From: Bacilli bacterium
GTDB lineage: Bacteria > Bacillota_I > Bacilli_A > RFN20 > CAG-826
Reading direction: 5' to 3'
Assembly (NCBI GenBank): GCA_028705995.1
Contig: JAQWCH010000001.1
Coordinates: forward strand, 4,166 to 68,165
DNA: 64,000 nt
Below the pieces are notes generated by a model. That model was not told where the DNA came from and made no database searches. It was given only the letters and a program-made list of their open reading frames with translations. The translations under genes and the position numbers were made by a program. Positions 31,814-55,306 of this stretch are shown in pieces. Position 1 is the stretch's first letter, and each line of letters opens with the position of its first letter.

Positions 31814-31842
31814 TTGACAACGATTTGTAAGCGCTTTAAAAT
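31814..31842 (+). promoter_or_regulatory. Sigma-A-type promoter of the LacI-regulator/ABC operon (-35 TTGACA, 17 nt, -10 TAAAAT)
   Basis: Perfect -35, 17-nt spacer and a good -10, located 38 nt upstream of the ATG at 31880. Confidence 0.65.
31826..31839. promoter_or_regulatory. cre-like / LacI-type palindrome TGTAAGCGCTTTAA overlapping the promoter spacer
   Basis: 12/14 match to the idealised cre TGTAAGCGCTTACA. The core AAGCGCTT is a perfect palindrome. Confidence 0.5.
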
Positions 31843-31848
31843 ATAGTC

Positions 31849-31860
31849 ACGAAAACGATT
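31849..31860. promoter_or_regulatory. Candidate operator ACGAAAACGATT just downstream of the -10
   Basis: Shares 11/12 positions with the 31625 site. It sits between the -10 and the RBS, a roadblock position. Confidence 0.4.
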
Positions 31861-31879
31861 AAGTAAACAGGAGAGCATA

Positions 31880-32923: not shown

Positions 32924-32950
32924 GTGCAATTCACTTGAAGGGAGATAAAA

Positions 32951-34318: not shown

Positions 34319-34339
34319 TTATTGAGATCAAAAAAGTGT

Positions 34340-34363
34340 GTCTCCCCAGTTCGCTGGGGAGAC
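34340..34363 (+). other. GC-rich intercistronic stem-loop (10-bp stem, TTCG loop) without U-tract
   Basis: GTCTCCCCAG-TTCG-CTGGGGAGAC between the binding-protein and permease genes. Confidence 0.8.
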
Positions 34364-34393
34364 CACTATTAATTATGGCAAGGATGGTCATTT

Positions 34394-35416: not shown

Positions 35417-36323
35417 AACAATGAATAGCGAAATGAAAAATATATCACAACCGATTAATAATAAGACCAAAAAGCAAAAAAGTATTAAACGTTCCTTATT
35501 GATTAAACGCATTTTAATTTATGCGGTTTTAATATTCATTACTTTTCTTTGTATCATTCCGTTTTACATCATGATTATCAATGCCACACGCGCTTCGCCA
35601 CAAATTCAACAAGGATTTTCATTTATACCTGGCGATCAGTTAGTTAATAACTGGAATTCAATGATGAGTATGTCAAGTATTCAAGTTGGTCGCGCTGTTC
35701 GCAATTCTTTATTAATTTCTTCAATTACTTCATTTTTGACTACATACTTCTCGGCGTTAACCGCTTATAGCATCTTTATGTATCGCTTTAAAGGTCGTAA
35801 TTTTGCCTTTATGTTTATTCTTTTTGTGATGATGATTCCCAACCAAATTTCGGCCCTCGGATTAGTTGCAATTGCTTATAAAATCAACATGGTGAATACG
35901 ATAATTCCGCTTGTTATACCGGCGATTGCTTCCCCAGTTACCTTTTTCTATATTAAGCAATACATGGAAAGTGTGCTTAATAAAGAACTGATTGAATCAG
36001 CACGCATTGATGGCGCAGGTGAAATACGTATATTTCATCGGATGGTTTTACCGATTATGAAGCCAGCGCTCGCTGTCCAATTCATTTTCGCCTTTGTTTC
36101 TTCATGGAATAATTTCTTTCTTCCATCATTAATTTTAACTGACGCAAGTTATCAAACAATTCCCTTAATTTTTAATTTACTACGGTCAAGTAATCCAGCT
36201 ACGTTTGATTTAGGTCTTATTTACATGTTGCTAACGGTAGCCATTTTACCATTACTTGTTGTCTATCTTTTATTTTCAAAAATGATTATCAGCGGACTAA
36301 CCGCAGGAAGTGTTAAAGGCTAA
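35409..36323 (+). CDS. Sugar ABC transporter permease (MalG/UgpE-like)
   Basis: EAA loop ESARIDGAGEIRIFHRMVLP. The start is ambiguous (GTG 35394, ATG 35397, 35409 or 35421) and overlaps the upstream permease stop. Confidence 0.85.
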   Translation: MNKTMNSEMKNISQPINNKTKKQKSIKRSLLIKRILIYAVLIFITFLCIIPFYIMIINATRASPQIQQGFSFIPGDQLVNNWNSMMSMSSIQVGRAVRNSLLISSITSFLTTYFSALTAYSIFMYRFKGRNFAFMFILFVMMIPNQISALGLVAIAYKINMVNTIIPLVIPAIASPVTFFYIKQYMESVLNKELIESARIDGAGEIRIFHRMVLPIMKPALAVQFIFAFVSSWNNFFLPSLILTDASYQTIPLIFNLLRSSNPATFDLGLIYMLLTVAILPLLVVYLLFSKMIISGLTAGSVKG

Positions 36324-36393
36324 TAATTTGCCACTTGGCTTCGTGCGGTAATTTCACTCCTTTGCCGCTCGGAGCACCGAATGAGGACGAACA

Positions 36394-37737
36394 ATGCAAA
36401 ACTTTTTTTGGGGCACCGCAACATCCGCATTTCAAATTGAAGGTGGCCATAATATAGATGGTCGGAGTCCTTCAATTTGGGATGTTTTTAGTTTACAAAA
36501 TGGGCGCATCAAAAATCATGATGATGGACGTAATGGGATAAATCATTATAAAACATATCAAAATGATCTCACGCATTTAGCGAAACTTGGAGTTAATAGT
36601 TACCGCTTTTCTCTTTCATGGAGTCGCATAATTCCAACGCTTAATGGCGAAGTCAATAAAAGTGGATTAGCATTTTATGATCGAATTCTCGATGAATTGG
36701 AAAAATACAAAATTACCCCGTTTATTACTCTATATCACTGGGATTTACCGCAATATCTACAAGATATCGGCGGCTGGCTTAATCCGAAAACGGTCGAAGC
36801 ATTCGCGCATTATGTTGCAGTTGTTGTGCAACATTTTGGTTCCCGGTGCTTACATTACATCACCTTAAATGAACCACAATGCATCGTAAATCTCGGACAT
36901 CGAACACTAGAACATGCCCCTGGTATTTACTTGAGCGATGAGCAAACGGTAAAAATCGTTCATCATTTGCTGCTCGCCCATGGACATGCGGTTACAGTAA
37001 TCCGCAAATTAAATGTAGGGGCAACTGTTGGAATTGCAAACACATCGACAGTGGCAATACCTGTAGCAAATACCAGCACCAATATTGAATTAGCACGGCG
37101 TCACTATTTTTCATTAGAACGTGGCCGTTTTGATCAAGTAACACTGTTTAGTGATCCAGTTTTTCTGGGGCGTTATCCTCAGGAATTCATTGAATTTTAC
37201 GAACAATTTTTACCTGAGAACTATAAAAAAGATCTTGAAATTATTAGTCAAGATATTGAGTATTGTTATCAGAATTTTTACACCGGCTACTTCATCGCGG
37301 AAGATAAGGCCGGAAATATGAAAATTTTGCCTTATACTAACGAAAATTATACTGGCGTTTTTCCGTGGCTACACTATGTGCCTGAAACGCTTTATTATGG
37401 CCCAAAATTTCTTTTTGAACGCTATCAAAAACCGATTATCATCTCGGAAAACGGAATATCTGTTGTCGATAAAGTGACATCTGATAAAAAAGTCCATGAT
37501 GTATGGCGCATCAAATATTTTTCTGACTATATAAGTGCTTTGCTTAAAATCAAAAAAGAAGGAGTTCCAGTTTTAGGCTATTTCGCTTGGTCATTATTTG
37601 ATAACTTTGAATGGGCTTGGGGGTATCAACCCCGGTTTGGTTTGATTTACATTGACTACTTAACACAAGAGCGGATATATAAAGATTCATTTTATTTTTA
37701 TCAAAACCTGATTAAAACAAAGATGGAGAAAATATAA
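36394..37737 (+). CDS. GH1 beta-glucosidase
   Basis: Acid/base motif TLNEP and nucleophile motif ISENG. N-terminal FFWGTATSAFQIEG. 447 aa. Confidence 0.9.
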   Translation: MQNFFWGTATSAFQIEGGHNIDGRSPSIWDVFSLQNGRIKNHDDGRNGINHYKTYQNDLTHLAKLGVNSYRFSLSWSRIIPTLNGEVNKSGLAFYDRILDELEKYKITPFITLYHWDLPQYLQDIGGWLNPKTVEAFAHYVAVVVQHFGSRCLHYITLNEPQCIVNLGHRTLEHAPGIYLSDEQTVKIVHHLLLAHGHAVTVIRKLNVGATVGIANTSTVAIPVANTSTNIELARRHYFSLERGRFDQVTLFSDPVFLGRYPQEFIEFYEQFLPENYKKDLEIISQDIEYCYQNFYTGYFIAEDKAGNMKILPYTNENYTGVFPWLHYVPETLYYGPKFLFERYQKPIIISENGISVVDKVTSDKKVHDVWRIKYFSDYISALLKIKKEGVPVLGYFAWSLFDNFEWAWGYQPRFGLIYIDYLTQERIYKDSFYFYQNLIKTKMEKI

Positions 37738-38735
37738 TGAGTGAATTAATCAAGGTAAAAAACCGACTAGGAATGGAAGTAACTTTTTCGCCAATAGGAG
37801 CATCAATTTTTGATATTAAAATTCCGACAAAAAACGGCAATATTTCAGTTACGGTTCATCCACAAAATGTTGCAGAGTTTAATGTTTCAACTGGTCATTT
37901 TGGTAAAACCATTGGTCGAAACGCTGGAAGAATACGTCATGGGAAATTTGTTATCAACAAGCAAGAGTATCAAATTGGAGCCGGCGAAAGCGCGGGCTTA
38001 CATGGTGGTAATGATGGGCTCTCATTTAAAGAATTTAATTTTGCCCAACACACGAATATGTTTGCAACTATTATTATATTTTCTTACCTAAGTCCGCATC
38101 TTGAAAGCGGGTTTCCTGGGAACGCGCATATTCAAGTCACATATCAAATTCCGCATCTTATCAATCGAATTGATATTGTTTATCACGCTTTTTCTAATCA
38201 AGATACAATTATGAATTTATCTAATCACGTCTATTGGAATCTGAATGGTGATGACGATATACTCAATCATTTATTAGGTATCAAAGCTTTAAAATTTGCT
38301 GAAGTAGATGAATGCTTATGTCCAAAATCAATTTGCCCGGTCTCACAAGTTATGGATTTTCGGCAACTACATAAAGTTGGCGATTACATAAAAAATCCGT
38401 ATTTAACTCCAACAGATGGCTACAATCATCCGTACATTCTTAATCCTGATGAAAAAGAAGTGCGACCAGTCGCTCAACTTATTGGTGATAAAAGTCACAT
38501 TACGATGACTCTTTATAGCGATTATCCAATTTTAATTTTTTATAGTGGTAATGTTGCAAGTTTAGACATTACAAACCACCATACACCATTTTTAAAACAC
38601 CAAGGATTAGCTCTTGAATGTCAATATTTACCAAATGCGATGAACAATGCATTTGATCAAGAAAAGACCGGCATTTTACCAGCTGAAACAAATTATCATC
38701 AGCAGATCACCTATCTTTTTTCATCGCTTGAATAG
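37737..38735 (+). CDS. galM: Aldose 1-epimerase (mutarotase)
   Basis: 332 aa. GLHGG and the GFPGN..V.V.Y pattern typical of galactose mutarotase-like proteins. TAATG overlap with the GH1 gene. Confidence 0.75.
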   Translation: MSELIKVKNRLGMEVTFSPIGASIFDIKIPTKNGNISVTVHPQNVAEFNVSTGHFGKTIGRNAGRIRHGKFVINKQEYQIGAGESAGLHGGNDGLSFKEFNFAQHTNMFATIIIFSYLSPHLESGFPGNAHIQVTYQIPHLINRIDIVYHAFSNQDTIMNLSNHVYWNLNGDDDILNHLLGIKALKFAEVDECLCPKSICPVSQVMDFRQLHKVGDYIKNPYLTPTDGYNHPYILNPDEKEVRPVAQLIGDKSHITMTLYSDYPILIFYSGNVASLDITNHHTPFLKHQGLALECQYLPNAMNNAFDQEKTGILPAETNYHQQITYLFSSLE

Positions 38736-41161: not shown

Positions 41162-41901
41162 AACTAATTGGAAATTATTGCACGCGAATTGATCGTGGGC
41201 AAGTGCGTTATTCAAACGAAGATCAAGCACTCATTTTAACCAATCCGCACGGTGATATTTTAATGCTAGTCGCTGATGGTATGGGCGGCCATGCTCAAGG
41301 TGATTTAGCGGCGCGTCTAGCAATTGATACGATAGCCCGGGCTTACCGCAACCGCCCTTATTTTCTTACACGCAAAAGTGCGGAAATGTGGTTAACCAAA
41401 ACGATTCGCCATGCCAATAGTGTGATTTATCGTGAGGCACAAAATAATCCGGATTATCGCGATATGGGTACAACTCTTGTTGCAGCGTTAATCCGCACTA
41501 ATGATTTAACCCTTGTCAATGCTGGTGATTCACGTGCTTACTGGCTAGAAAATGGGCGGTTAAATTTATTAACGGAAGATCAAACACTTGTTTCATATTT
41601 AGCAAAAACCGGGCAAATTCGTCCGGAAGAAAAAAAAACACATCCGCGCCGGCATGTGTTAATCAATGCGCTTGGTGTTGACCCCTCAGTTAGTCTAGAT
41701 GTTTTTAAACTTGATTATCTCGATCAAACTATTTTGCTTTGTTCTGATGGGCTTTATAATCACGTTAATGATGATGAAATCGAAGCCGTGCTTTTGACTG
41801 ATGATAGTGTTGAAGAAAAGGCAACAATGCTTGTCACTAACGCGAATAACAACGGAGGCACCGATAATATTGCCGTCGCTTTATGGGAGCGTGAGTTATG
41901 A
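41158..41901 (+). CDS. prpC: PP2C-family Ser/Thr protein phosphatase (PrpC/Stp)
   Basis: ADGMGGH, GDSR, CSDGL and DN(I/T) motifs. 247 aa. 4-nt overlaps with both neighbours. Confidence 0.9.
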   Translation: MKLIGNYCTRIDRGQVRYSNEDQALILTNPHGDILMLVADGMGGHAQGDLAARLAIDTIARAYRNRPYFLTRKSAEMWLTKTIRHANSVIYREAQNNPDYRDMGTTLVAALIRTNDLTLVNAGDSRAYWLENGRLNLLTEDQTLVSYLAKTGQIRPEEKKTHPRRHVLINALGVDPSVSLDVFKLDYLDQTILLCSDGLYNHVNDDEIEAVLLTDDSVEEKATMLVTNANNNGGTDNIAVALWEREL

Positions 41902-42785
41902 GACCACTTGGTCAAGTAATTGATCAGCGTTATCGGATTACCGCTTTTTTAGGCGCTGGTGGCATGGCCGAAGTCTACGAAGCTAAAGATATTATTATGC
42001 GGCGTTTAGTCGCGGTCAAAATCATCAAAGATGATGTGCTCGATAATCCGCAAAATGTTTTACGTTTTGAACGTGAAGCACGCGCGGCGGCATCACTTGA
42101 TCATCCAAATATTGTCGCTGTTTTAAACTTAGGTAGTGACGATGGTCATCCTTATATGGTTAATGAATTAATTAACGGTGTAAATTTAGGTGCAGCCTTA
42201 GAGACACGCACTCGCTTTACACATCGGGAAACACTTGATATCATCAATCAACTTTGTTCAGCGGTCATCTGCGCACATGAAAATGGTGTTATTCATCGCG
42301 ATATCAAACCAGCAAATATTTATATGACACCTGCTGGGATTATTAAACTTGGTGATTTTGGAATTGCGCAAATTTTAGCTTCCCCAAAAATGACTAATAG
42401 CCAAGATATTATTGGTTCTGCACATTATTTAGCCCCGGAAGTGTCGCAAGGAAAGTCAGCTTCGATTCAAAGTGATTTATATGCAATTGGCGTCACCTTT
42501 TTCGAAATTGCCACTGGTCATTTACCTTATGAAGCAGAAACAAATGTAGCGATTGCCGTCAAGCATATTAAAGAAAAATTTCCAAGTCCACGCAAATATT
42601 TACCGCTTTTTCCCAAAGCAATGGAAAAGATTATGCTCAAAGCATGCAAGAAAAATCCGCGTGATCGATATAAAACTGTGCGTGATTTTCAAAAAGAAAT
42701 TCAAAATCTACTGGCGAATCCAAATTTATTAAAGCCCCGCCAATCATTCTTTGTTCGCTTTTTTGGTTTTGCCACAGATGAATGA
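41898..42785 (+). CDS. prkC: Hanks-type Ser/Thr protein kinase, catalytic domain only (no TM or PASTA region)
   Basis: GAGGMAEVY Gly-loop, VAVK, HRDIKPANI, DFG and APE motifs. Only 295 aa, with no hydrophobic segment after the kinase domain. Confidence 0.85.
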   Translation: MRPLGQVIDQRYRITAFLGAGGMAEVYEAKDIIMRRLVAVKIIKDDVLDNPQNVLRFEREARAAASLDHPNIVAVLNLGSDDGHPYMVNELINGVNLGAALETRTRFTHRETLDIINQLCSAVICAHENGVIHRDIKPANIYMTPAGIIKLGDFGIAQILASPKMTNSQDIIGSAHYLAPEVSQGKSASIQSDLYAIGVTFFEIATGHLPYEAETNVAIAVKHIKEKFPSPRKYLPLFPKAMEKIMLKACKKNPRDRYKTVRDFQKEIQNLLANPNLLKPRQSFFVRFFGFATDE

Positions 42786-45219: not shown

Positions 45220-45414
45220 TTAGGCTTTTTTCGCCGTTTTATTTAACGTGCGATAAGCACGTGTCGACATACGGATGGTGCGCACAGTACCATCAATATT
45301 GATCTTAAATGGTTGTAAATTCACATTCCAACTGCGACGGGTCGCCCGTAAAGAGTGCGAACGATTATTACCACTGATTTTATGTTTTCCGGTTACCGGA
45401 CAAACTCTTGCCAT
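45220..45414 (-). CDS. rpmB: 50S ribosomal protein L28
   Basis: MARVCPVTGKHKISGNNRSHSLRATRRSWNVNLQ, 64 aa. Confidence 0.95.
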   Translation of the reverse strand: MARVCPVTGKHKISGNNRSHSLRATRRSWNVNLQPFKINIDGTVRTIRMSTRAYRTLNKTAKKA

Positions 45415-45492: not shown

Positions 45493-46002
45493 TTAGAATT
45501 TCGTTTTTGGATAGCGAATTTGATACTCTTCTTGAGAAATTAAATGCTTACAGCGCTCGATTACCGCTTGATAGATTTTCATTTCACTATCCATCGGTAA
45601 GTAGCGTTCATGGCCTTGTTTTGTATAGAAAAGTAAGACTTTATGTTTTTCGCTATAAACTTGATCAATGTAAAGAATATCACTGTAATAGTAGACAAGT
45701 AATTTATTGCCTTTGTGGTGTGTTAGTGATTTTTTCCCAATCTCATACCAGTTCATTTTAATTCCAAGAATCATTGTAATTAAAGCGATAACAATTGGTA
45801 AGGTCACAAACAAAATATCGCCGGCGAGCGGTGGCCACTTCCACGAACCAAAGGTAAAATAAAAAATTGCCGCCATAACAATACCAGCGATTGTATAATT
45901 TAAAATCGTCTTGCGTGGAGATGCATAAACTTTCATATGGCTAGTATAGCAATTAGGGGCGTAATTTGCACGATTTTTTACCGATTTTCCCTTTAAGCCC
46001 AT
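45493..46002 (-). CDS. Hypothetical small membrane protein (2 TM plus C-terminal soluble domain)
   Basis: ORF 45493..46089. The longest form overlaps the jetA-like start and promoter, so an internal start (46002 or 45936) is more likely. No family recognised. Confidence 0.5.
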   Translation of the reverse strand: MGLKGKSVKNRANYAPNCYTSHMKVYASPRKTILNYTIAGIVMAAIFYFTFGSWKWPPLAGDILFVTLPIVIALITMILGIKMNWYEIGKKSLTHHKGNKLLVYYYSDILYIDQVYSEKHKVLLFYTKQGHERYLPMDSEMKIYQAVIERCKHLISQEEYQIRYPKTKF

Positions 46003-46012
46003 AGTGGAAATA

Positions 46013-46021
46013 TGGTAAAAT
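46013..46021 (+). promoter_or_regulatory. Extended -10 (TGGTAAAAT) upstream of the jetA-like gene
   Basis: Read directly from the sequence. GAGGAGG RBS at 46036-46042 and ATG at 46049. Confidence 0.45.
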
Positions 46022-46048
46022 ATTTTTGAATAGGCGAGGAGGAAAAAA

Positions 46049-47488
46049 ATGAGTTTATTTACGATTATTCCTGATAAATTTTTTTCCATTCTCGCGTCGC
46101 CAAACCGCGAGATTTATGCCGATGCCCTTGTTGTTTTATTTCAATCGCTAAAGACCGATGAACTCGCGATGAAAAAAAGCGACTACGTCCGTACCTTGCG
46201 CGATAAAGCGACTAATGAAATTCTCAAGTTTGATCTTGCTGCTGATGAAGATAGTGAAATGAGTGATGAAGAAGAAGCCAATCAAATATCCAATCAAACG
46301 CTAGCGACGAAAACAGCGGCGATTGTTCGACGCTTAGAAGAAACTGGTTGGATTGATATCCAAATCGACGGTAATGACTTCGAAGAATATATCGCTCTTC
46401 CTTCCTACTCAATTCAGTTTTTAGAACTAATTAATGAAATCATCACAAAACGTGAAGGCGAATATGTTTCGCTAGTTCATGCGACCTATAGCGAACTCCG
46501 GCTTGAAGATGATCATCCCGATGAATTCATGTATGCAACGTTGATGCGCGCTTACGAGAATACGCGGGAATTACGGACCGAACTTGTCACACTTGGTCAC
46601 TCAATTCGAATTTTCCAAAATCGCTTAGGCCGCGTTTTTTCGACAAACTCGATTTTGCATGATTATTTTGATAATTATAAAGACCACGTTTCCGATCGTT
46701 ATTATCACCCTTTAAAAACATTTGATTCGGTCGCTAAATTTAAACGACCAATTGTGATGATTTTGCAACGCTGGTTGCGCGACGAAGAAATTCGGGCGTT
46801 ACTAGTTAATCAAGCTTTAATCTACACCCGGAAAAAATCACCAACCGAGGTTGAACGTGATTTAATTACAAAAATTAACTATATTTGCGATATGTACGAT
46901 ACATTGAGCGAGATGATTAATCAAATCGATGAAAAACATCAAGATTATACAAAGTCTTCAGCAAGCAAAATTCTTTATCTCAATGCTCAAGACAAAACAA
47001 TCAAAGGACATTTGGATAATATTTTCCGCTACTACGCCCAAGGCGTCTTAAGTGGCGTTGGTATTGTTCCATTAGTCCGAGACATGCAAGAAGCAATTGT
47101 GTTAAACCAACAAGGTTTCATTGATACAGATTCAGTTACATTACCGATTGTGCGTCAATATCGCCAAGAGAGTGAACCATTATCGATTATCGATTTTGGT
47201 GATGTTTCTGATATGCTTATGCGCGGCTTTTTGGATGAAACACGGAATGTTTTTACCGATGATCGCGTTTATGATTTTATGGAAACGGCATTTGGTGATT
47301 CCTCAGAAATGCGAATTGAAGAAATTTCATTACCCGACTTTGATGCCTTTATCCTGTTGATTTTAGCTTCGCTTAAGACGAATGATGAAAATTGTTTTTA
47401 TACGATGGAAATGGAAGATGGCCAAATTATCTCACAAGGCTACTCCCTCCCACGTTTTATTTTTAAACGAAAGGAATTGGAAGTTTAA
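46049..47488 (+). CDS. jetA: JetA/MksF-like kleisin-type subunit of an SMC-like (Wadjet/Mks) complex
   Basis: 479 aa. It is the first gene of a coupled 480/210/1125-aa operon whose order and sizes match MukF-E-B and JetA-B-C. The assignment rests on context, size and a helical, acidic-loop architecture, not on a named motif. Confidence 0.5.
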   Translation: MSLFTIIPDKFFSILASPNREIYADALVVLFQSLKTDELAMKKSDYVRTLRDKATNEILKFDLAADEDSEMSDEEEANQISNQTLATKTAAIVRRLEETGWIDIQIDGNDFEEYIALPSYSIQFLELINEIITKREGEYVSLVHATYSELRLEDDHPDEFMYATLMRAYENTRELRTELVTLGHSIRIFQNRLGRVFSTNSILHDYFDNYKDHVSDRYYHPLKTFDSVAKFKRPIVMILQRWLRDEEIRALLVNQALIYTRKKSPTEVERDLITKINYICDMYDTLSEMINQIDEKHQDYTKSSASKILYLNAQDKTIKGHLDNIFRYYAQGVLSGVGIVPLVRDMQEAIVLNQQGFIDTDSVTLPIVRQYRQESEPLSIIDFGDVSDMLMRGFLDETRNVFTDDRVYDFMETAFGDSSEMRIEEISLPDFDAFILLILASLKTNDENCFYTMEMEDGQIISQGYSLPRFIFKRKELEV

Positions 47489-47490
47489 TT

Positions 47491-48120
47491 ATGTTTGAAG
47501 AAGAATTTGTTGCGCTTCCACGCAGCGAACAGGACCAATTTGCCACGGTTGTTAACAGTTTATTATCAAAATCGTTTATCGTGCGGGATTTATTTGATCG
47601 GCGTGAAAAAACGATGAAAATCAATCCACAATTTCGGTTTTTAGAACGCTATTACGATTTAGTTAATAGCTACCTTTCGTTTGCTGGTTGGGAGATGGAA
47701 AAAGATTTAATCAATGGAGTTTTTTCATTGCGAAATACGTATGATCAAAATCGCTATCGTCTTGACCGTGAAGTATCATTAATTGCTTTTGTTTTACGCC
47801 TAATTTATGAAAGCGAAAAAAGTGAAAGCAATCAAACAGGTGAATCAATTTATGTGACGACGCCAACGGTTTTAAAAGTAATGCTCGATCGTGGTATATC
47901 ACTTCCGGGAAAACGTCTTTCAGGACGCTTGATTGGTAAATCCTTACGGGCGCTCAGTGTTTTTAATATCATCGCTCGCGTCAGTGGATCATTTGATGAA
48001 GGCAATGTGGCATTTTATATCACACCAGCGATTATTTACGCAGTCGATAACGACAAAATAGCGGCGATGTCGAATGCTCTCGATGAACTTGCTGCACGTG
48101 AAGGAGGTTCGCAAGAATGA
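47491..48120 (+). CDS. jetB: JetB/MksE-like (KITE, DUF4194-type) subunit
   Basis: 209 aa, starting 2 nt after the jetA-like stop. The pattern FRFLERYYDLVNSYLSFAGWEMEKDLINGVFSLRN resembles the DUF4194 family as I recall it. Confidence 0.5.
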   Translation: MFEEEFVALPRSEQDQFATVVNSLLSKSFIVRDLFDRREKTMKINPQFRFLERYYDLVNSYLSFAGWEMEKDLINGVFSLRNTYDQNRYRLDREVSLIAFVLRLIYESEKSESNQTGESIYVTTPTVLKVMLDRGISLPGKRLSGRLIGKSLRALSVFNIIARVSGSFDEGNVAFYITPAIIYAVDNDKIAAMSNALDELAAREGGSQE

Positions 48121-51100
48121 AACTACTGAAACGGGCGAAAGTAATCAATTGGCATTACTTTTGGAATGAAACAATCGATTTTGAACAAATCGTCTTTTTA
48201 ACTGGTCTGAACGCCTCGGGTAAATCAACGCTGATTGATGCGATGCAAGTCATCCTCTTAGGCGATACAAGCGGACGTTTCTTTAATAAAGCAGCGATGG
48301 ATAAATCAAACCGCACTTTAAGAGGATATTTACGCGGCGAACTCGGTGACAATGTCGAAGGCGGTTTTCATTATTTACGCAATGGACGCTTTACTTCCTA
48401 TATTGCATTAGAGTTTGCTGATCAAAAGTCATTAGAAACATTTACTGTTGGGTGCGTGTTTGATGTTTACGAAGATGGCAGTGAAGAACATCGGTTTTTT
48501 GCCCTAGACTTTGCCATTCCAGAAAATGAATTTATTACGAATAAAATCCCAATGGATTATAAAACACTCGTCGCCTATCTAAATGATACAAATAATGGAA
48601 AATTCACATTTTTTGACTCCAATCGGCAATATCAAGACTATATTAAGCGCCGCTTTGGTGGCCTCAAAGATAAGTATTTTTCCTTGTTGAAGAAGTCAAT
48701 TTCTTTCACACCAATTACCGATATCACAACATTCATTACCGAATATGTTTGTGACCCACAAACAAATATTGACATCGTCCCGATGCAAGATAATATTTTG
48801 CAATATAAAAAATTAGAAAATGAAGCCTTAATTATGAAGGCAAGAGTCGAACGACTCGAAGAAATTTCGCACACGTATAAAATGTTTGAACAACAACGTG
48901 AAGAGATGCAAATTTCATCTTATCAAATTGAAAAAGCTGGTTATTATAACGATAAAAAACGCCTAGATTCATACTATGAACAAATTACTACGGCAAAACG
49001 TCGCCTAATTGATATTGATGTCGATTTAGCAGAAACTGATAAGATGATTGCTGACCTTCAACGCAAAAAAACACGCTATATTCAAGATAAAGCGAACTCC
49101 GATACCTATCGTTTAACCGATGAATTAACTGAGCAAAAACTTGAGGCGGAGAAACGCAAACAAGAATTAACCGCACAAAGTGCACTTGTAGTAAATAATT
49201 TAAATGGCTACCTAGCTAATTTTATCGCTGTTGCGCAAGGCTTAATTGATACGCTTGATGATTTTAACGCTGAGCGCTTAGAAAATGATCAACGTGATGA
49301 ACTGCGCTTGTTAAAAGATAGCGCATTACAAGTACTTAATTTATCAATTAAATTACGTGATCAATATCTTGACCAAATTGAACTACTCGCTGCGGAAGAT
49401 TTGCTCTCTTGGCGTGAAGCATTATCGCTTTTCCAACAACGGATTGCGGCTTTAAGTTTAAGCATTGGGCGTAATGTGACAACACTCGAACAAAAACTAG
49501 CCATGCTCAAACAACAAGAAGTCGATATGCATAGTGGCGGTAAATCTTATGAATGGGCGCTTTCGTCAATCAAAAGAAGTCTTCAAGATGAATTAACAAG
49601 GCGCCACGGCGAAGAAATACCCGTGATGATTTTTGCTGATTTATGTGACATTAAATCACCGAAGTGGGCAAATGCGATTGAAGGTTATTTGTACAATCAA
49701 AAATTTAATTTATTTGTCGAATCCGCTTATTATATGGAAGCTTATAACATTTTGCGGGATTTACTCGATAAAAATCACTATTATGGGACTACGCTGATTG
49801 ACCAAGACCGCATTATCGAACGCAACTTCGAAGCGGATGCTCAATCACTCGCAGAAGAAATCATTACTGACCATCCTGGGGCCCGGGCTTATGCTAATTA
49901 CCTAATTGGCCGACTTCGTAAATGTCAAAATCTCAATGAAGCCCGTAGCTCTGGTAACGGAATTACCGCTGATGGTGATTTATATCGCAATTTTGGCTTT
50001 GGTAAAATTAATCCACGCCTTTACCGCGAGCACATCATTGGCCGTTCGATCGGTCAAGATCAAATTGTTGCTAAACAAGCCGAAATCGCTTTAAATCAAC
50101 AATTACTGACAACATTCCGCACTTTAAATAGCAAAATCAATGATGCTGGGCGCTTAGAAATTATCAATACCAATGAAATTAATAGCATTGTCAATATTCT
50201 TGATAGTCTTAAAGCTCTACCAGGTTTGGAAAAAACAATTGATTATTTAACAAGCGAACTATCTAAACACGATTTAACACAACTCGAATCTTTACAAAAA
50301 CGGATTGATGCGATTGATGAAGATTTGCTTGATTTAGAAAAAGAACGCGCTGGCTATTTCGAGGAAAAAGGACGGCTCAATACACAGATGAATAATCTCA
50401 TTAATGAGCGGATTCCGGAAGTTGAAAAAGCATGTAATACACGGCTTAAAACACTTGAAGAACACTATGATGTATTTCTTGTTAATGAAAAAGCTGAACC
50501 ATTATTTGAAAAGCAAGTGCAAGAAGGTAAGACACCACTGGATATTATTGCTGAATATAATTTAGCATTTTCACATGCGCAATATCTTGTGAATAATCTC
50601 TACTCGCAATTGGTCAAATTACGTAAAGATTACGTGCGTGATTACCGCCTCACTTATGAAACAGATTTAAATGATAACATCCTTTATCAAGCTGAACTCA
50701 ATGACATTCGTGAAGTCCAACTCCCATTATATGAAGGGAAAATTCATGATGCATATGAAAAGGCGATTACCCAATTTAAAAATGATTTTATTGCCAAGTT
50801 ACGTGGGGCAATCGAAACGGTCGAAGATCAAATTGAAGAACTCAATCACGCATTAGGAGCATCGACGTTTGGTAACGATTCCTATCAATTTACCGTGCGT
50901 CCTTCGGCGACATATCGCGCTTACTATGACATGATTACCGATGATCTTTTGCTCGAAATTGATCAAGATGAAACGGCTTTTCTCGCCAAGTATGATCAGG
51001 TGATGAAAGACCTTTTTGCCCAAATTGCTTTAGCCGGTGATAAAGAAAATAATGCTGCAGTTTTAGCCAATGTGGAAAAATTTACTGATTATCGTAATTA

Positions 51101-51494
51101 CTTAGATTTTGATCTTGTTGTGAAAGATAAAGCTGGTAATGAACAACGACTCTCAAAGATGATCAAAAAGAAATCCGGTGGTGAAACACAAACCCCATTC
51201 TATATTTCCGTGCTTGCTTCCTTTGCTCAACTTTACCACGTACAAGATAGTGGTGAACTCAGCAATACGATACGTTTAATTATCTTTGATGAAGCGTTCT
51301 CCAAAATGGATAGTGGTCGGATTCGTGAATCGATTCGCTTATTACGTAAATTCGGCTTACAGGCCATCGTTAGTGCGCCATCAGACAAAGTAGCCGATAT
51401 CTCTGCCCTCGTTGATGAAACGCTTGTTGTCCTTCGTGGCAAAAACGCTTCGCACGTTCGCCTTTATGCCGAAGAAGAAAAAATTAGCGCTTAA
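48117..51494 (+). CDS. jetC: JetC/MksB-like SMC-family ATPase
   Basis: ATGA overlap with the upstream gene. MukB-like N-terminus VINWHYFW...LTGLNASGKST (Walker A at nt 48204-48230), about 800 aa of charged coiled-coil-type sequence, C-terminal SGGETQ signature and LIIFDEAF Walker B. Confidence 0.75.
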   Translation: MKLLKRAKVINWHYFWNETIDFEQIVFLTGLNASGKSTLIDAMQVILLGDTSGRFFNKAAMDKSNRTLRGYLRGELGDNVEGGFHYLRNGRFTSYIALEFADQKSLETFTVGCVFDVYEDGSEEHRFFALDFAIPENEFITNKIPMDYKTLVAYLNDTNNGKFTFFDSNRQYQDYIKRRFGGLKDKYFSLLKKSISFTPITDITTFITEYVCDPQTNIDIVPMQDNILQYKKLENEALIMKARVERLEEISHTYKMFEQQREEMQISSYQIEKAGYYNDKKRLDSYYEQITTAKRRLIDIDVDLAETDKMIADLQRKKTRYIQDKANSDTYRLTDELTEQKLEAEKRKQELTAQSALVVNNLNGYLANFIAVAQGLIDTLDDFNAERLENDQRDELRLLKDSALQVLNLSIKLRDQYLDQIELLAAEDLLSWREALSLFQQRIAALSLSIGRNVTTLEQKLAMLKQQEVDMHSGGKSYEWALSSIKRSLQDELTRRHGEEIPVMIFADLCDIKSPKWANAIEGYLYNQKFNLFVESAYYMEAYNILRDLLDKNHYYGTTLIDQDRIIERNFEADAQSLAEEIITDHPGARAYANYLIGRLRKCQNLNEARSSGNGITADGDLYRNFGFGKINPRLYREHIIGRSIGQDQIVAKQAEIALNQQLLTTFRTLNSKINDAGRLEIINTNEINSIVNILDSLKALPGLEKTIDYLTSELSKHDLTQLESLQKRIDAIDEDLLDLEKERAGYFEEKGRLNTQMNNLINERIPEVEKACNTRLKTLEEHYDVFLVNEKAEPLFEKQVQEGKTPLDIIAEYNLAFSHAQYLVNNLYSQLVKLRKDYVRDYRLTYETDLNDNILYQAELNDIREVQLPLYEGKIHDAYEKAITQFKNDFIAKLRGAIETVEDQIEELNHALGASTFGNDSYQFTVRPSATYRAYYDMITDDLLLEIDQDETAFLAKYDQVMKDLFAQIALAGDKENNAAVLANVEKFTDYRNYLDFDLVVKDKAGNEQRLSKMIKKKSGGETQTPFYISVLASFAQLYHVQDSGELSNTIRLIIFDEAFSKMDSGRIRESIRLLRKFGLQAIVSAPSDKVADISALVDETLVVLRGKNASHVRLYAEEEKISA

Positions 51495-51499
51495 TTTTT

Positions 51500-51522
51500 A
51501 GACCACTATGTGGTCTTTTTTT
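51500..51522 (+). terminator. Intrinsic terminator immediately after the jetC-like gene
   Basis: AGACCAC-TAT-GTGGTCT hairpin followed by a 7-nt T-run, starting 6 nt after the stop codon. Confidence 0.85.
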
Positions 51523-51597
51523 ATCACTTAGAAACAAGTACAATAGTAGTGCACGATGTTTAACAATTTAATGAATAATACTGCATAGGAGGCAACT

Positions 51598-52734
51598 ATG
51601 GCGAATGAGAATGAAGTTGTAGCGATGCTTTTGGCCGGTGGCAAAGGCACAAGACTGAAAGACTTAACAAAAAAGAGTGCGAAACCCGGTGTCCCCTTTG
51701 GTGGTAAATACCGCATTATCGATTTTCCGATGTCCAACATCGCCAATTCTGATATTAACATTGTTGGTGTCATGACACAGTATGAATCGACATTTCTTAA
51801 CTCCTATATTGGTAATGGTGATAAATGGGGACTCAATGGCGTACGCGCGTTAACAGCGACACTAACACCACGGCAAACCGAACAAGGCTCCAATTGGTAT
51901 AACGGTACGGCCGATGCGATTTATCAAAATATTGATTTTCTCGATGAACAAAATCCGCGTTATGTTTTAATTCTTTCCGGAGATCACATTTATAAGATGG
52001 ATTATCGGAAAATGCTTTCTAGTCACATTAAGGCGGAAGCGGATTTAACGATAGCTGTTATCGATGTCTCACTTAAAGAAGCCAGTCGCTTTGGTATTTT
52101 AAAGACTGATGAAAATGGCGATGTAACCGCCTTTATTGAAAAGCCGAAGAACCCGCCATCAACGCTTGCTTCAATGGGAATTTATATCTTTAATTATGAT
52201 GTGCTGCGGCGCGAACTCATTAAAGATGCGAAAAATCCACAATCAAACCGCGACTTTGGTCAAGACATCATCCCCGAAATGTTGAGAAATCAAAATAAAA
52301 TCCATGCTTATACTTTCCAAGGTTATTGGAAAGATGTTGGTACAGTCAACTCGTTATGGGAAGCGAATATGGATTTACTGGCGAGTGGACTCGATTCGGA
52401 AATATACCGCGATCTAGATGGGCTAACCATTTATACAGAAGACACAAAGTCAGTGCCACAATACATTGGAAAAAACGCCAAAGTGATTGATTCAATTGTT
52501 AACCAAGGTGCGATTATTCTTGGTGAAGTTTATCATTCAATTATTTCCAATGAAGTTTTTATTGCCGAAGACGCTACTGTAAGTGATTCGGTAATCATGC
52601 CGAATGTAATTATTCCAGAGGCAGCAACAATTGAATATGCGATTATTGATAGTGAAGCCGTTCTCCACACCGGTGCTAGTTATATCGGTACCGCTGATAA
52701 TATTCTTTTAATTCATGGAAAGGATGGTTTTTAA
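51598..52734 (+). CDS. glgC: Glucose-1-phosphate adenylyltransferase
   Basis: LAGGKGTRL motif, FGGKYRIIDF, 378 aa, AGGAGG RBS. Confidence 0.95.
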   Translation: MANENEVVAMLLAGGKGTRLKDLTKKSAKPGVPFGGKYRIIDFPMSNIANSDINIVGVMTQYESTFLNSYIGNGDKWGLNGVRALTATLTPRQTEQGSNWYNGTADAIYQNIDFLDEQNPRYVLILSGDHIYKMDYRKMLSSHIKAEADLTIAVIDVSLKEASRFGILKTDENGDVTAFIEKPKNPPSTLASMGIYIFNYDVLRRELIKDAKNPQSNRDFGQDIIPEMLRNQNKIHAYTFQGYWKDVGTVNSLWEANMDLLASGLDSEIYRDLDGLTIYTEDTKSVPQYIGKNAKVIDSIVNQGAIILGEVYHSIISNEVFIAEDATVSDSVIMPNVIIPEAATIEYAIIDSEAVLHTGASYIGTADNILLIHGKDGF

Positions 52735-52736
52735 AT

Positions 52737-53858
52737 ATGGATTATCAAAAAGTAATTGGTTTTCTCAACCTCCATCATTCACCATCACTTGGTCCGTTAA
52801 CCGCTGATCGTCCACTCGCATCAACATCATTTCTTGGTCGATATGCTTTTATGGACTTTACTCTTTCAAATTTTACCAATTCCCGGATTGATGAAGTTGG
52901 TATATTAATTCAAACAAAACCCCGTTCAATTCTTAAACATCTTGGATCAAATAATACGTGGAACACGAACACGAAGACGGGTTTTGAAATTATAATGTAT
53001 AACGAAGAAGCAATTGGCAATAAACGTTATAACAACGATTTTGCTAACATTCGTGCAAATGATTGGGTGCTGAAACGCTCGGATGCTGATTATGTTATTG
53101 TGGCGCCGGCACATTTTATTATGGCAATTGATTATCGGGAAGTTTTAGCTCAACATATTGCTTCGCATGCGCAAATCACTTTAGTTTATACTCCGGCGAC
53201 GAATGCCCGTAATCATTTTATTGGTTCCGATGTTTTGACGCTTAATGAAGAAAAACTTGTTAGTGAAATTCGCCCCAATAAAGGGACAGTGAATAAAGCA
53301 AATATTTCGCTCGAAACATATGTGATTAATCGGGCAAAATTTATTGAATTAATGGAGAAGGCCGCGACTATTTCATCATTTTTCTGTCTCCATGATATTG
53401 TTTCTTATACGTGTGGAACAACCGAACGTGTTAATACTTATGCCTATCATGGTTATGTCCGCTGTTTTGATAGTCTAGAACATTATGTCGAATATTCGAT
53501 GGAACTACTTGATTATTCAAATCGGGCAAAACTTTTTAGAGCAGATTGGCCAATTTATACGGTCACCCACGATACACCACCAACACGCTATTTACCAGAA
53601 GCTAATGTCCGTAATAGTTTTATTGCTAATGGTGCTCATATTCAAGGAAATGTCCGCAATTCGATTATTTCCCGTGGTGTTGTAGTCGGCGCTAACAGCA
53701 AGGTGAGCAACGCGATAATATTATCTTCGACTGTGATTGGGGAGAATATTGAAATTGATCATGTGATTATTGATAAATACTGTAAAATTCGTCATGCAAA
53801 ATCGCTTAAAGGCGAGAAAGGTAAGCCACTTTACATCAAACAAGGAGATCAAATTTAA
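52737..53858 (+). CDS. glgD: Glucose-1-phosphate adenylyltransferase regulatory subunit GlgD
   Basis: GlgC paralog lacking the GGxGxRL motif, positioned between glgC and glgA as in Firmicutes. Confidence 0.85.
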   Translation: MDYQKVIGFLNLHHSPSLGPLTADRPLASTSFLGRYAFMDFTLSNFTNSRIDEVGILIQTKPRSILKHLGSNNTWNTNTKTGFEIIMYNEEAIGNKRYNNDFANIRANDWVLKRSDADYVIVAPAHFIMAIDYREVLAQHIASHAQITLVYTPATNARNHFIGSDVLTLNEEKLVSEIRPNKGTVNKANISLETYVINRAKFIELMEKAATISSFFCLHDIVSYTCGTTERVNTYAYHGYVRCFDSLEHYVEYSMELLDYSNRAKLFRADWPIYTVTHDTPPTRYLPEANVRNSFIANGAHIQGNVRNSIISRGVVVGANSKVSNAIILSSTVIGENIEIDHVIIDKYCKIRHAKSLKGEKGKPLYIKQGDQI

Positions 53859-55306
53859 TGCGCATATTAATGGTGGCAAGTGAAGTCAATCCATTTGTGA
53901 AAACTGGTGGTTTGGCCGATGTCGTCTATGCCCTTAGCAAAGAAGAAGCCATCTTACATCATGAAGTAAGTGTTGTTTTACCGCTTTATAATTTGATTCA
54001 AAATAAAAAGCAATTTCCAATGCGGCAAATTGCAAGTTTTGACGTTCATCTTAGTTGGCGTCGCCAAATTGCGACTATTTTCCAAACTTTTGTTGATGGG
54101 ATTACCTACTATTTCATTGGTAATGATTTCTATTTTAATCGTGAAGGAATTTATGGTTATCAAGATGACATTGAACGCTTCGCCTTTTTTAATCGCGCAA
54201 CACTTGCCTTAATAAATTTTTTAAACAAACCATTTGATATTATTCATGCTCATGACTGGCAAGCGGGTATGCTTCCCGTATTAGTGCGGGAAAATGAGCG
54301 GGAAAATTCATTATTTACCGGAACAAAATTTGTTTTAACAATTCATAATCCGGCTTTCCAAGGAATGTTTGATCCTAATCTATTGCCGGATTTATTTGAA
54401 TTGAGTTTTGATTTATATGAAAATGGCGCTGTCCGTTTTCATCAACAAGCGTCTAGTCTTAAAGCAGCAATCATTTACTGTGATAAAATCACCACTGTTT
54501 CACCAACCCATGCCATAGAGCTATTAACGCCAGAAGGCTCAAAAGGCTTAGATGCTGTGATTAATTATCGGAAAGATGATTTTATTGGCATTCTTAACGG
54601 GATTGATTATGCCGAGTTTAGTCCGGAAACAGATTATTTAATTGCGAAAAACTTTTCCTCCAAAAATTATATTAGTGGAAAAAAAGCCTGCAAAGTTGAT
54701 TTACTCAAACACCTTGGTTTACCAAGCGAAAGCGAACAACCGGTTTTTGGTTTAGTTAGTCGTCTAACATGGCAAAAAGGGCTTGAACTTTACCTCCCAG
54801 GAATGGAAATGCTCCTCCAACGTGGTTCGATTGTTATTGCCCTAGGTAGCGGGGAGTATCAATACGAACAAGCACTCGAAAACCTGCGGGCAACCTATCC
54901 AAATCAAGTTGGAATTTATATTGGTTATAATCATGAACTCGCCCATAAAATCTATGCTGGTAGCGACTTTTTCGTAATGCCATCTTTATTCGAACCATGT
55001 GGGTCCGGTCAAATGATTGCCCAACGCTATGCAACACTACCAATTGTGCGTTTAACCGGTGGTTTAAAAGATTCGGTTGTGATTTATGATGGACAAAATG
55101 CTAAACAGGCGAATGGCTTCGGATTCGAAGAATTTCAGCCTTATTGGATGAACTTAACACTCGATTATGCGCATCGCATTTATCGCAATAAACCGGTATT
55201 ACGCCAACTAATGCGCAATGCGTTAAAAGTTGATAATACTTGGCTTCGCTCGGCAACAAAATATCTTGAATTATATGAATCTGCCCTTGGAGGTAAAAAA
55301 TTATGA
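53858..55306 (+). CDS. glgA: Glycogen synthase (ADP-glucose type)
   Basis: MRILMVASEVNPFVKTGGLADV N-terminus, 482 aa. Confidence 0.95.
   Translation: MRILMVASEVNPFVKTGGLADVVYALSKEEAILHHEVSVVLPLYNLIQNKKQFPMRQIASFDVHLSWRRQIATIFQTFVDGITYYFIGNDFYFNREGIYGYQDDIERFAFFNRATLALINFLNKPFDIIHAHDWQAGMLPVLVRENERENSLFTGTKFVLTIHNPAFQGMFDPNLLPDLFELSFDLYENGAVRFHQQASSLKAAIIYCDKITTVSPTHAIELLTPEGSKGLDAVINYRKDDFIGILNGIDYAEFSPETDYLIAKNFSSKNYISGKKACKVDLLKHLGLPSESEQPVFGLVSRLTWQKGLELYLPGMEMLLQRGSIVIALGSGEYQYEQALENLRATYPNQVGIYIGYNHELAHKIYAGSDFFVMPSLFEPCGSGQMIAQRYATLPIVRLTGGLKDSVVIYDGQNAKQANGFGFEEFQPYWMNLTLDYAHRIYRNKPVLRQLMRNALKVDNTWLRSATKYLELYESALGGKKL

What the first reader, a model, noticed from the sequence alone, without database searches (positions are those of the whole stretch)
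46049..51522. JetABC / MksFEB-like SMC operon with no JetD/MksG nuclease gene, embedded among housekeeping genes
Three genes are translationally coupled, with a 2-nt gap and then an ATGA overlap. They encode 479-, 209- and 1125-aa proteins. The large protein has a MukB/JetC-type head. Its N-terminus reads VINWHYFW...LTGLNASGKST (Walker A, nt 48204-48230). About 800 aa of charged coiled-coil-like sequence follows. The C-terminus carries an SGGETQ signature and an LIIFDEAF Walker B. The order and sizes match kleisin-KITE-SMC operons (MukF-E-B, Wadjet JetA-B-C). Described Wadjet/MksBEFG defence operons also carry a fourth gene, the Toprim nuclease JetD/MksG. Here the SMC gene is followed 6 nt later by a strong terminator (51500-51522) and then by glgC. 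Upstream lie only a divergent 2-TM protein and rpmB. No integrase, transposase or repeat boundary is visible, and by eye the composition looks like the rest of the window. Three explanations fit. It could be a nuclease-less Wadjet derivative. It could be an Mks-type condensin recruited for chromosome maintenance in a reduced genome. Or it could be a sensing module that works with an unlinked or novel effector. I consider this the most likely undescribed or atypical system in the window.
Basis: partly seen in the sequence, partly recalled or inferred. Interest (0 to 1): 0.8.

Follow-up and report, generated by a model that had tools for sequence, protein, structure and literature searches.

The report
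Nuclease-free Wadjet (JetABC) kept as core operon
This is a three-gene SMC motor of the plasmid-defence "Wadjet" type that has lost its DNA-cutting subunit. A whole lineage of uncultured gut and digester Bacilli has inherited it like a housekeeping gene, so it most likely helps organise the chromosome; that kind of system is already known as MksBEF, and this is a clean new example.

Summary
jetA (46049-47488), jetB (47491-48120) and jetC (48117-51494) are tightly coupled type I Wadjet genes. They lie between rpmB and glgC, end at a terminator, and have no jetD.

A JetD profile built from three verified JetDs finds nothing in the window or in 79 related loci (1.07 Mb). In those relatives, JetA is 33-84% identical and the order rpmB / jetABC / glgCDA is almost always kept. 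All 54 complete JetC copies are full length, with invariant ATPase motifs. dN/dS is 0.04-0.06, the same as the neighbouring housekeeping genes, and JetABC divergence tracks theirs.

The jetD-less loci form one clade (99/100 bootstraps). The closest four-gene jetABCD operon found (JetA 38%) is Clostridia-like and sits among unrelated genes. The simplest reading is one old loss of jetD followed by vertical inheritance, although only one branch outside the clade was examined.

Nuclease-free "MksBEF" is already a described class, and the literature proposes that it arose from Wadjet by nuclease loss. This is therefore a new member of a known kind, not an undescribed system. It most likely acts as a condensin.

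Two things could not be tested: whether these genomes still carry Smc-ScpAB, and whether they carry an unlinked JetD.

The parts
45937..46048 (+). Intergenic region between the divergent 2-TM gene and jetA. It holds the jetA ribosome-binding site (GGAGG). No promoter was established.
   Evidence: Sequence read. The promoter scan was no better than shuffled sequence.
46049..47488 (+). jetA, the kleisin subunit (479 aa, type I, DUF5716/PF18982).
   Evidence: Pfam JetA 9.7e-89 and PADLOC JetA1 2.5e-123. The AF2 model shows nWHD, helical bundle, flexible middle and cWHD. Its best Foldseek matches are kleisin chains: Wadjet-II JetABC 9qe0_E at 7.6e-6, and MukF in 9gm7, 9gm9, 7nz2 and 3euh. dN/dS is 0.041.
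47491..48120 (+). jetB, the KITE subunit (209 aa, DUF4194, MukE-like). It starts 2 nt after the jetA stop.
   Evidence: Pfam DUF4194 4.7e-16 and PADLOC JetB1 1.5e-63. A profile gives weak matches to solved JetB structures 8dk1_E and 8as8_C. dN/dS is 0.044.
48117..51494 (+). jetC, the SMC ATPase (1125 aa). Its start overlaps the jetB stop (ATGA).
   Evidence: PADLOC JetC1 E=0 over the full length; Pfam AAA_29 and SbcC_Walker_B. A profile matches solved type I JetC at 1e-35 (8as8) and 1e-23 (8dk2), type II JetC at 1e-13, MukB at 4e-10 and an Smc hinge at 2e-6. All 54 complete copies in relatives are full length. dN/dS is 0.061.
48204..48230 (+). Walker A / P-loop, GLNASGKST (JetC residues 30-38).
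   Evidence: G30, N32, G35, K36, S37 and T38 are invariant across 43 distinct JetC sequences; S34 is 98% conserved.
49614..50036 (+). Hinge (dimerisation) region of JetC, about residues 500-640, including the invariant W517-N-A-I-E-G523 motif.
   Evidence: Conservation peaks in this stretch. The profile matches Smc hinge structures 4rsj and 3nwc.
51174..51191 (+). ABC signature motif SGGETQ (JetC residues 1020-1025).
   Evidence: Invariant in the clade, except T1024 at 98%.
51276..51299 (+). Walker B and D-loop, LIIFDEAF (JetC residues 1054-1061).
   Evidence: IIFDEAF is invariant in the clade.
51500..51523 (+). Intrinsic-terminator-like hairpin plus T-run that ends the operon.
   Evidence: A 7-bp stem with 4 G-C pairs, followed by T7.
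45220..45414 (-). rpmB (ribosomal protein L28), the conserved upstream flank.
   Evidence: Translation. It is conserved upstream of jetA in relatives.
45493..45936 (-). Divergent 2-TM protein of about 147 aa, a neighbour of jetA in most but not all relatives. No link to jetABC has been shown.
   Evidence: No Pfam family matched.
51598..55306 (+). glgC-glgD-glgA (glycogen synthesis), the conserved downstream flank.
   Evidence: Translations. glgC follows jetC on the same strand in 45 of 48 informative loci.

Best explanation
This is a domesticated, nuclease-free type I Wadjet: a JetA (kleisin), JetB (KITE) and JetC (SMC ATPase) complex whose ancestor probably lost the JetD Toprim nuclease. Since then it has been passed down vertically as a fixed chromosomal operon, between rpmB and glgCDA, in a deep lineage of uncultured Bacilli that sources label 'Bacilli bacterium' or 'Erysipelotrichaceae bacterium'. 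Shown here: all three genes are intact, the ATPase and hinge motifs are invariant, purifying selection is as strong as on the neighbouring housekeeping genes, there is no JetD in or near the operon, and there are no added nuclease domains. Inferred from solved type I Wadjet and MukBEF complexes: JetA dimerises through its N-terminal winged-helix domain and bundle, binds JetB dimers on its flexible middle, and closes JetC dimers into a dimer-of-dimers that uses ATP to extrude DNA loops. Further inferred: without a nuclease, the complex acts on the host chromosome as an MksBEF/MukBEF-like condensin. It would promote long-range contacts and help separate sister chromosomes, either alongside Smc-ScpAB or in its place.
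For: Identity: Pfam and PADLOC give full-length type I JetA/B/C hits. The JetC profile is closest to solved type I JetC. The JetA model matches kleisin chains.

No JetD: a three-seed JetD HMM recovers the four true JetDs at about 1e-208 and scores nothing better than E=1.6 in the 1.19 Mb held at the time; the rerun over all loci gave the same four hits at E<1e-3. Subunit sizes (479/209/1125 aa) match those of JetD-bearing relatives (487/218/1170 in L077; 474/202/1135 in Cohnella), so no nuclease domain is fused.

Vertical inheritance: of 48 loci with sequence beyond jetC, 45 have glgC next, 1 has an inverted glg cluster, and none has JetD. rpmB lies within 1.5 kb upstream in 46 of 62 loci. These loci comprise 44 JetA clusters at 90% identity, drawn from many metagenomes. 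JetC identity to the window correlates with that of GlgD, GlgA and GlgC (Spearman 0.93, 0.86, 0.70), and mean identities are similar: JetC 56%, GlgC 60%, GlgA 52%.

Selection: median dN/dS is 0.041 for JetA, 0.044 for JetB and 0.061 for JetC, against 0.042 for GlgC, 0.050 for RlmN and 0.053 for RpmB. Walker A, signature and Walker B motifs are invariant.

Phylogeny: the jetD-less group is monophyletic in 99/100 bootstraps. The closest four-gene jetABCD relative found (JetA 38%) sits in a variable, non-housekeeping neighbourhood, and its JetD is 79% identical to that of Caldicoprobacter, a member of the Clostridia.

Precedent: P. aeruginosa MksBEF and M. smegmatis MksB are nuclease-free and act on the chromosome (10.1101/2020.05.18.101659; PMC11329512).
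Against: No function was tested, and everything about activity is inferred. Whole genomes of the lineage could not be read, so an unlinked JetD or another effector cannot be excluded. It is also unknown whether Smc-ScpAB is present. All loci were found through JetA, so how often the site is occupied across the lineage is unknown; the GlgC fingerprint test was inconclusive. The conserved JetB N-terminal tip (MFEE.F) also occurs in a JetD-bearing relative (MWVEEY). This tip lies where type I JetB carries its JetD-docking IFDR motif, so a docking surface may survive. Strong conservation shows the complex is useful, but it does not show what it is used for.
Confidence: 0.6

Rival explanations
1. 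It is still a plasmid or mobile-element defence sensor. JetABC scans DNA by loop extrusion and hands small circles to a nuclease encoded elsewhere in the genome, either an unlinked JetD or a non-homologous effector.
For: The proteins sit on the type I Wadjet branch, not the MukBEF branch. The JetB N-terminal tip is strictly conserved and resembles that of a JetD-bearing relative. Whole genomes were not searched.
Against: No JetD lies within about 10 kb in any of 79 loci. The three four-gene operons examined here all have jetD directly after jetC. None of the 120 closest relatives of the nearest JetD sits on a contig with this lineage's length fingerprint or carries its taxonomic label (weak evidence). 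Fixed position, co-divergence and housekeeping-level dN/dS are unusual for a defence system, and the literature attributes the high sequence divergence of Wadjet to its history as a defence system (10.1101/2022.10.04.510915).
Confidence: 0.2
2. It is a nuclease-independent anti-plasmid system. JetABC alone compacts, silences or mis-segregates small circular DNA, by analogy with Smc5/6 restriction of episomes.
For: The literature discusses passive, non-cleaving inactivation as a possible SMC immunity mode (10.1101/2022.10.04.510915, discussion). The ATPase is intact and highly conserved.
Against: All four subunits are reported to be required for plasmid restriction in tested Wadjet systems (PMC10586767). 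Nothing in the data points to plasmids specifically.
Confidence: 0.12
3. It is a decaying remnant of a Wadjet island, or an assembly artefact that dropped jetD.
For: None beyond the missing fourth gene.
Against: 54 independent full-length JetC copies, invariant catalytic motifs and dN/dS of 0.04-0.06. The same three-gene layout appears in dozens of independent assemblies. In the window only about 100 nt, containing a terminator, separate jetC from glgC.
Confidence: 0.02

Closest known systems
MksBEF of Pseudomonas aeruginosa (nuclease-free Muk-like condensin; Petrushenko 2011, Lioy 2020)
   Same: It is a three-gene kleisin-KITE-SMC operon without MksG/JetD. It is thought to derive from JetABCD by loss of the nuclease (PMC10586767). 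It is chromosomal and acts on chromosome contacts and segregation (10.1101/2020.05.18.101659).
   Different: It comes from a different phylum and a separate lineage. Here the closest four-gene relative found is a Clostridia-like type I jetABCD, so the loss is probably independent. MksBEF is described as scattered by horizontal transfer, whereas this operon is syntenic and co-diverges with housekeeping genes down to 33% JetA identity. Its function is untested. Coexistence with Smc-ScpAB is known for Pseudomonas and unknown here.
Type I Wadjet / JetABCD (E. coli GF4-3, P. aeruginosa PA14, C. glutamicum MksBEFG)
   Same: JetA, JetB and JetC belong to the same profile families (DUF5716, DUF4194, JetC1). 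Gene order, coupling and subunit sizes match, and JetC is the closest solved homologue.
   Different: There is no JetD Toprim nuclease in or near the operon. The locus is a fixed housekeeping position rather than a variable one. Selection and divergence resemble those of core genes.
MukBEF of Enterobacteria
   Same: It shares the overall architecture. The JetA model matches MukF structurally, and the JetC N-terminus weakly matches MukB. MukBEF is also proposed to have come from a Wadjet-like ancestor and is vertically inherited as a core condensin.
   Different: It is not a sequence-level member: the Pfam MukB hit is below threshold, and no MukE or MukF profile matched. MukBEF replaced Smc-ScpAB, which is untested here.
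MksB-MksEF of Mycolicibacterium smegmatis
   Same: It is a second Mks-type operon with no reported nuclease role, alongside the defence paralogue EptABCD. It follows replication forks and acts on the chromosome (PMC11329512).
   Different: It is actinobacterial and coexists with SMC. No comparable deep synteny has been reported.

Membership tests
Wadjet type I defence system (JetABCD) | JetA kleisin of the DUF5716/PF18982 family | tested here: met
   Pfam 9.7e-89 over the full length; PADLOC JetA1 2.5e-123. The fold matches kleisin chains.
Wadjet type I defence system (JetABCD) | JetB KITE subunit (DUF4194) | tested here: met
   Pfam 4.7e-16; PADLOC JetB1 1.5e-63.
Wadjet type I defence system (JetABCD) | JetC SMC ATPase with intact Walker A, signature, Walker B and hinge | tested here: met
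   PADLOC JetC1 E=0. Profile match to 8as8 JetC at 1e-35. Motifs are invariant.
Wadjet type I defence system (JetABCD) | JetD (aCAP plus Toprim nuclease) encoded in the operon | tested here: not met
   The JetD HMM and phmmer find nothing in the window or in 79 related loci, while control JetDs score about 1e-208. Only about 100 nt, containing a terminator, separate jetC from glgC.
Wadjet type I defence system (JetABCD) | Restriction of small circular plasmids by cleavage | not testable with these tools
   This needs transformation or cleavage assays.
MksBEF (nuclease-free Muk-like condensin) | Three-gene kleisin-KITE-SMC operon related to MukFEB/JetABC | tested here: met
MksBEF (nuclease-free Muk-like condensin) | No MksG/JetD partner | tested here: inconclusive
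   JetD is absent from the operon and from about 10 kb on each side in all loci. No lineage-fingerprinted JetD appears among the 120 closest JetD relatives. Whole genomes were not searchable.
MksBEF (nuclease-free Muk-like condensin) | Acts in chromosome organisation or segregation | not testable with these tools
   This is inferred only from core-gene-like synteny, co-divergence and selection.
MukBEF | Membership of the MukB, MukE and MukF sequence families | tested here: not met
   The Pfam MukB N-terminal hit scores 21.4 bits, below the 23-bit cut-off. No MukE or MukF hits were found. Only fold-level similarity to MukF was seen.
Smc-ScpAB | Canonical Smc (SMC_N plus SMC_hinge above threshold) with ScpA and ScpB partners | tested here: not met
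   SMC_N scores 21.4 bits (cut-off 40) and SMC_hinge 15.2 bits (cut-off 22.5). The partner proteins match JetA and DUF4194, not ScpA or ScpB.

The most novel reading that the evidence does not exclude
This lineage of small-genome Bacilli has lost Smc-ScpAB and relies on the domesticated, nuclease-free type I Wadjet as its only condensin. That would be a second, independent replacement of Smc-ScpAB by a Wadjet-derived complex, parallel to MukBEF in gamma-proteobacteria. Here the four-gene defence relatives are still identifiable, so the defence-to-housekeeping transition could be reconstructed step by step.
Probability: 0.15. Interest if true: 0.85.

Novelty: new member of a known kind. Interest (0 to 1): 0.45.

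Why it matters
The SMC field has proposed that the chromosomal condensins MukBEF and MksBEF began as Wadjet plasmid-defence systems that lost their nuclease (PMC10586767; 10.1101/2025.03.10.642339). That idea rests mainly on structural resemblance. Here the transition can be followed in sequence data. A monophyletic, jetD-less type I JetABC behaves like a core gene: it has a fixed locus, co-diverges with its neighbours, and has a dN/dS equal to theirs. The closest four-gene relative found is still a jetABCD operon in a variable context. This gives matched 'before' and 'after' proteins for tests of what changes when an SMC immune sensor becomes a chromosome organiser. It also matters for annotation. 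Pipelines label these genes 'Wadjet anti-phage system', and defence-system finders may score them as incomplete defence islands, which is probably misleading for this lineage.

Tried and rejected
As a result, no complete genome of the lineage could be searched for smc, scpA, scpB or an unlinked jetD. This is the main gap.

2. I tried to judge site occupancy by comparing the longest-contig values of the 120 nearest GlgC clusters with those of the JetA hits. Only about 10 matched.

3. I tried to map the type I JetD-docking elements. The JetB 'IFDR' motif could not be mapped, because solved JetBs align only from about residue 68, at E = 0.08-0.6. The region around E. coli JetC F919 aligns only to within about 4 residues, next to the clade's conserved F955. 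The JetB N-terminal tip is the same with or without JetD. None of these discriminates between the explanations.

4. Single-sequence PDB searches with JetA, JetB and JetC gave essentially nothing. Only profiles reached the solved Wadjet structures.

5. The AF2 model of JetB from a single sequence was unusable (pLDDT 35).

6. The whole-window PADLOC summary shows only the top 25 families, so it could not exclude JetD by itself. I replaced it with direct HMM searches.

7. The promoter scan around the operon was no better than shuffled sequence. No Rfam family lies near the operon, and no repeats bracket it.

8. I considered the conserved 2-TM neighbour as a possible partner or effector. It is absent from a whole subclade and from the sister group, and it has no recognisable domain, so I rejected it.
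Full report
**Observation.** The jetA stop TAA is followed by two bases and then the jetB ATG. jetB and jetC share an ATGA overlap. GGAGG ribosome-binding sites precede jetA and jetC. A 7-bp hairpin at 51500-51516 followed by a T-run begins 5 nt after the jetC stop, and glgC starts at 51598. Operon GC is 38.2% against 37.5% for the window. No repeats bracket the operon, and no structured RNA lies nearby. I read the translations of the window's ORFs of 150 aa or more by eye. The surrounding genes are ordinary housekeeping genes: eno, glpK, addBA, gmk, priA, rsmB, rlmN, prpC, prkC, rpe, corA and rpmB on one side, and glgCDA, leuS, tex and coaX on the other.

**Identity.** Profile searches leave no doubt. 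Pfam gives JetA (PF18982) at 9.7e-89 over the whole model, DUF4194 at 4.7e-16, and AAA_29 plus SbcC_Walker_B for the large protein. PADLOC gives JetA1 at 2.5e-123, JetB1 at 1.5e-63 and JetC1 at E=0 over the full length, all type I Wadjet models. Single sequences barely reach the PDB. A JetC profile, however, matches solved type I JetC from E. coli GF4-3 at 1e-35 and from PA14 at 1e-23. It matches type II JetC at 1e-13, MukB at 4e-10 and an Smc hinge at 2e-6. An AlphaFold model of JetA (pLDDT 68) shows the kleisin layout: N-terminal winged helix, helical bundle, flexible middle and C-terminal winged helix. Its only significant Foldseek matches are kleisin chains, from the Wadjet-II JetABC structure 9qe0 and from MukF in several MukBEF structures.

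**No JetD.** I took verified JetD genes from four-gene operons on a Cohnella plasmid and a Rossellomorea plasmid. Later I added a closer metagenomic relative, L077, whose product has a Pfam JetD_C hit. These JetDs find each other at 1e-40 to 1e-53. A three-seed HMM scores them at about 1e-208. Nothing else in the window or in any jetABC-only locus scores better than E=1.6, in six-frame translation of the 1.19 Mb held at that point. The rerun over all loci gave the same four hits at E<1e-3. The window's subunits (479/209/1125 aa) are about the same size as those of JetD-bearing relatives, so no nuclease domain has been fused on.

**Relatives and synteny.** JetA has hundreds of homologues in uncultured organisms that sources label 'Bacilli bacterium' or 'Erysipelotrichaceae bacterium'. 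I gathered 79 loci of this jetD-less lineage, 1.07 Mb in total. They comprise 44 JetA clusters at 90% identity and 25 at 70%. They come from gut, digester and other metagenome assemblies. Of the 48 loci with sequence beyond a complete jetC, 45 have glgC next on the same strand, one has the glg cluster inverted, two have other genes, and none has JetD. rpmB lies within 1.5 kb upstream of jetA in 46 of 62 informative loci. The full order, rlmN-prpC-prkC-rpe-rpmB / jetABC / glgCDA-leuS, recurs in locus after locus. The jetABC-glgCDA link persists even at 33% JetA identity (L083).

**Core-gene behaviour.** Identity to the window is similar for JetABC and its neighbours: JetC 56%, JetA 56% and JetB 61%, against GlgC 60%, GlgA 52%, GlgD 47%, Rpe 55% and RlmN 64%. 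JetC identity also correlates across loci with that of GlgD, GlgA and GlgC (Spearman 0.93, 0.86 and 0.70). All 54 complete JetC copies are 1121-1146 aa. Every truncated copy is cut by a contig end, except one on a 2x-coverage contig. Walker A, the signature motif and Walker B/D-loop are invariant. Conservation is highest in the heads and hinge and lowest in the coiled coil. On 25 closely related pairs, Nei-Gojobori dN/dS is 0.041 for JetA, 0.044 for JetB and 0.061 for JetC. That is indistinguishable from GlgC at 0.042, RlmN at 0.050 and RpmB at 0.053. A decaying remnant is excluded.

**Origin.** In a library clustered at 50% identity, JetA has 706 representative relatives. A neighbour-joining tree puts all syntenic jetD-less loci in one clade (79/100 bootstraps). 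Together with a sister group that is also jetD-less wherever it could be checked, they form a clade supported in 99/100 bootstraps. Outside that clade lies P0127 (JetA 38% identical). It is a classical jetABCD operon in an unrelated, variable neighbourhood. Its JetD is 79% identical to that of Caldicoprobacter, and the other named relatives are also Clostridia. The simplest history is one ancient loss of jetD from a type I Wadjet, followed by long vertical inheritance. Only one outgroup branch was checked for JetD, so this polarity is an inference.

**Comparison with what is known.** A three-gene MksBEF without MksG has been a described class since Petrushenko 2011, as cited in 10.1101/2022.10.04.510915. 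[quoted passage not shown] M. smegmatis MksB follows replication forks (PMC11329512). [quoted passage not shown] The arrangement is therefore not undescribed. Three things are new here. The loss seems to be independent and lies in Firmicutes. The operon shows unusually clean core-gene behaviour, whereas MksBEF is usually described as scattered by horizontal transfer. And identifiable four-gene relatives survive. An unrelated jetABC-only locus in Agathobacter rectalis suggests that such losses recur.

**Mechanism and rivals.** The best-supported reading (confidence 0.6) is an MksBEF-like condensin: a JetA-bridged dimer of JetC dimers, with JetB on the kleisin, that extrudes chromosomal DNA loops and has nothing with which to cut. 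The main rival (0.2) is a sensor that works with an unlinked nuclease. Against this rival, no JetD lies within about 10 kb in any locus, and none of the 120 closest JetD relatives carries this lineage's contig fingerprint or taxonomic label. That is weak evidence. In favour of the rival, the JetB N-terminal tip survives unchanged; it lies where type I JetB carries its JetD-docking motif, and a JetD-bearing relative has the same tip. Nuclease-free plasmid silencing (0.12) is possible but has no specific support.

**Limits.** I could not read whole genomes of the lineage. Three questions therefore stay open: whether Smc-ScpAB is present, whether a JetD is encoded elsewhere, and how universally the rpmB-glgC site is occupied. 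[quoted passage not shown] I therefore give the replacement scenario only about 15%. It is the reading that would make this finding important.

**Verdict.** The system is a new member of a known kind and of moderate interest (0.45).

Noticed in passing
window 16875-18008 (+): A 377-aa protein encoded directly after addB/addA (11408-16856) matches only DUF5677 (Pfam 5.9e-10). Its function is unknown, and it gave no PADLOC hit.
   Followed up: partly
window 28511-29113 (+); also L018 2220-2915 and L030 1395-1976: A 200-aa protein after priA has an acidic tail rich in His and Cys (HHHHHHPHMECCEGDECDCEDGECDCE). A protein of the same kind follows priA in related loci, so it is a conserved, metal-binding-looking gene of unknown role.
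   Followed up: no
window 41898-42785 (+): The PrkC-like Ser/Thr kinase is only 295 aa, a kinase domain with no room for the membrane and PASTA parts of full-length PrkC. It produces very strong PADLOC 'PD-T4-6' hits (down to 3e-96), which most likely reflect kinase-domain similarity rather than a defence system.
   Followed up: partly
window 45493-46089 (-): The longest ORF of the divergent 2-TM gene (198 aa) overlaps jetA by 41 nt. Its homologues are 146-152 aa, so the real start is probably the ATG at 45936. The gene neighbours jetA in most loci but is missing from one subclade and from the sister group. It has no Pfam family.
   Followed up: partly
L009 (Agathobacter rectalis NZ_CP143948) 2759-8351: A distantly related jetABC (JetC 28% identical) on a 252-kb 'plasmid' also lacks jetD and is followed by a carbonic anhydrase gene. 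This looks like an independent jetD-less case in a cultured gut Clostridia species.
   Followed up: partly
L003 1-4021 and L004 1-3740: In a divergent subclade, a type I restriction-modification locus (hsdR plus hsdS genes) lies 6-10 kb upstream of jetA. In L003 a phage-type integrase sits between two hsdS genes, a shufflon-like arrangement.
   Followed up: no
L083 3014-12519; L073 4262-13484: The jetABC-glgCDA adjacency survives at 33% JetA identity even though the upstream genes differ (L083). In L073 the glg cluster is inverted but still adjacent. Whether this is only conserved gene order or a functional link is unknown.
   Followed up: partly
window 29164-38735: This is a carbohydrate-use cluster, read by eye from the translations: a GH94-like phosphorylase, a LacI-type regulator, a sugar ABC transporter, a GH1 beta-glucosidase and an aldose epimerase. 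It sits between the priA region and rsmB and interrupts the otherwise typical Firmicutes priA...rpmB gene order.
   Followed up: no
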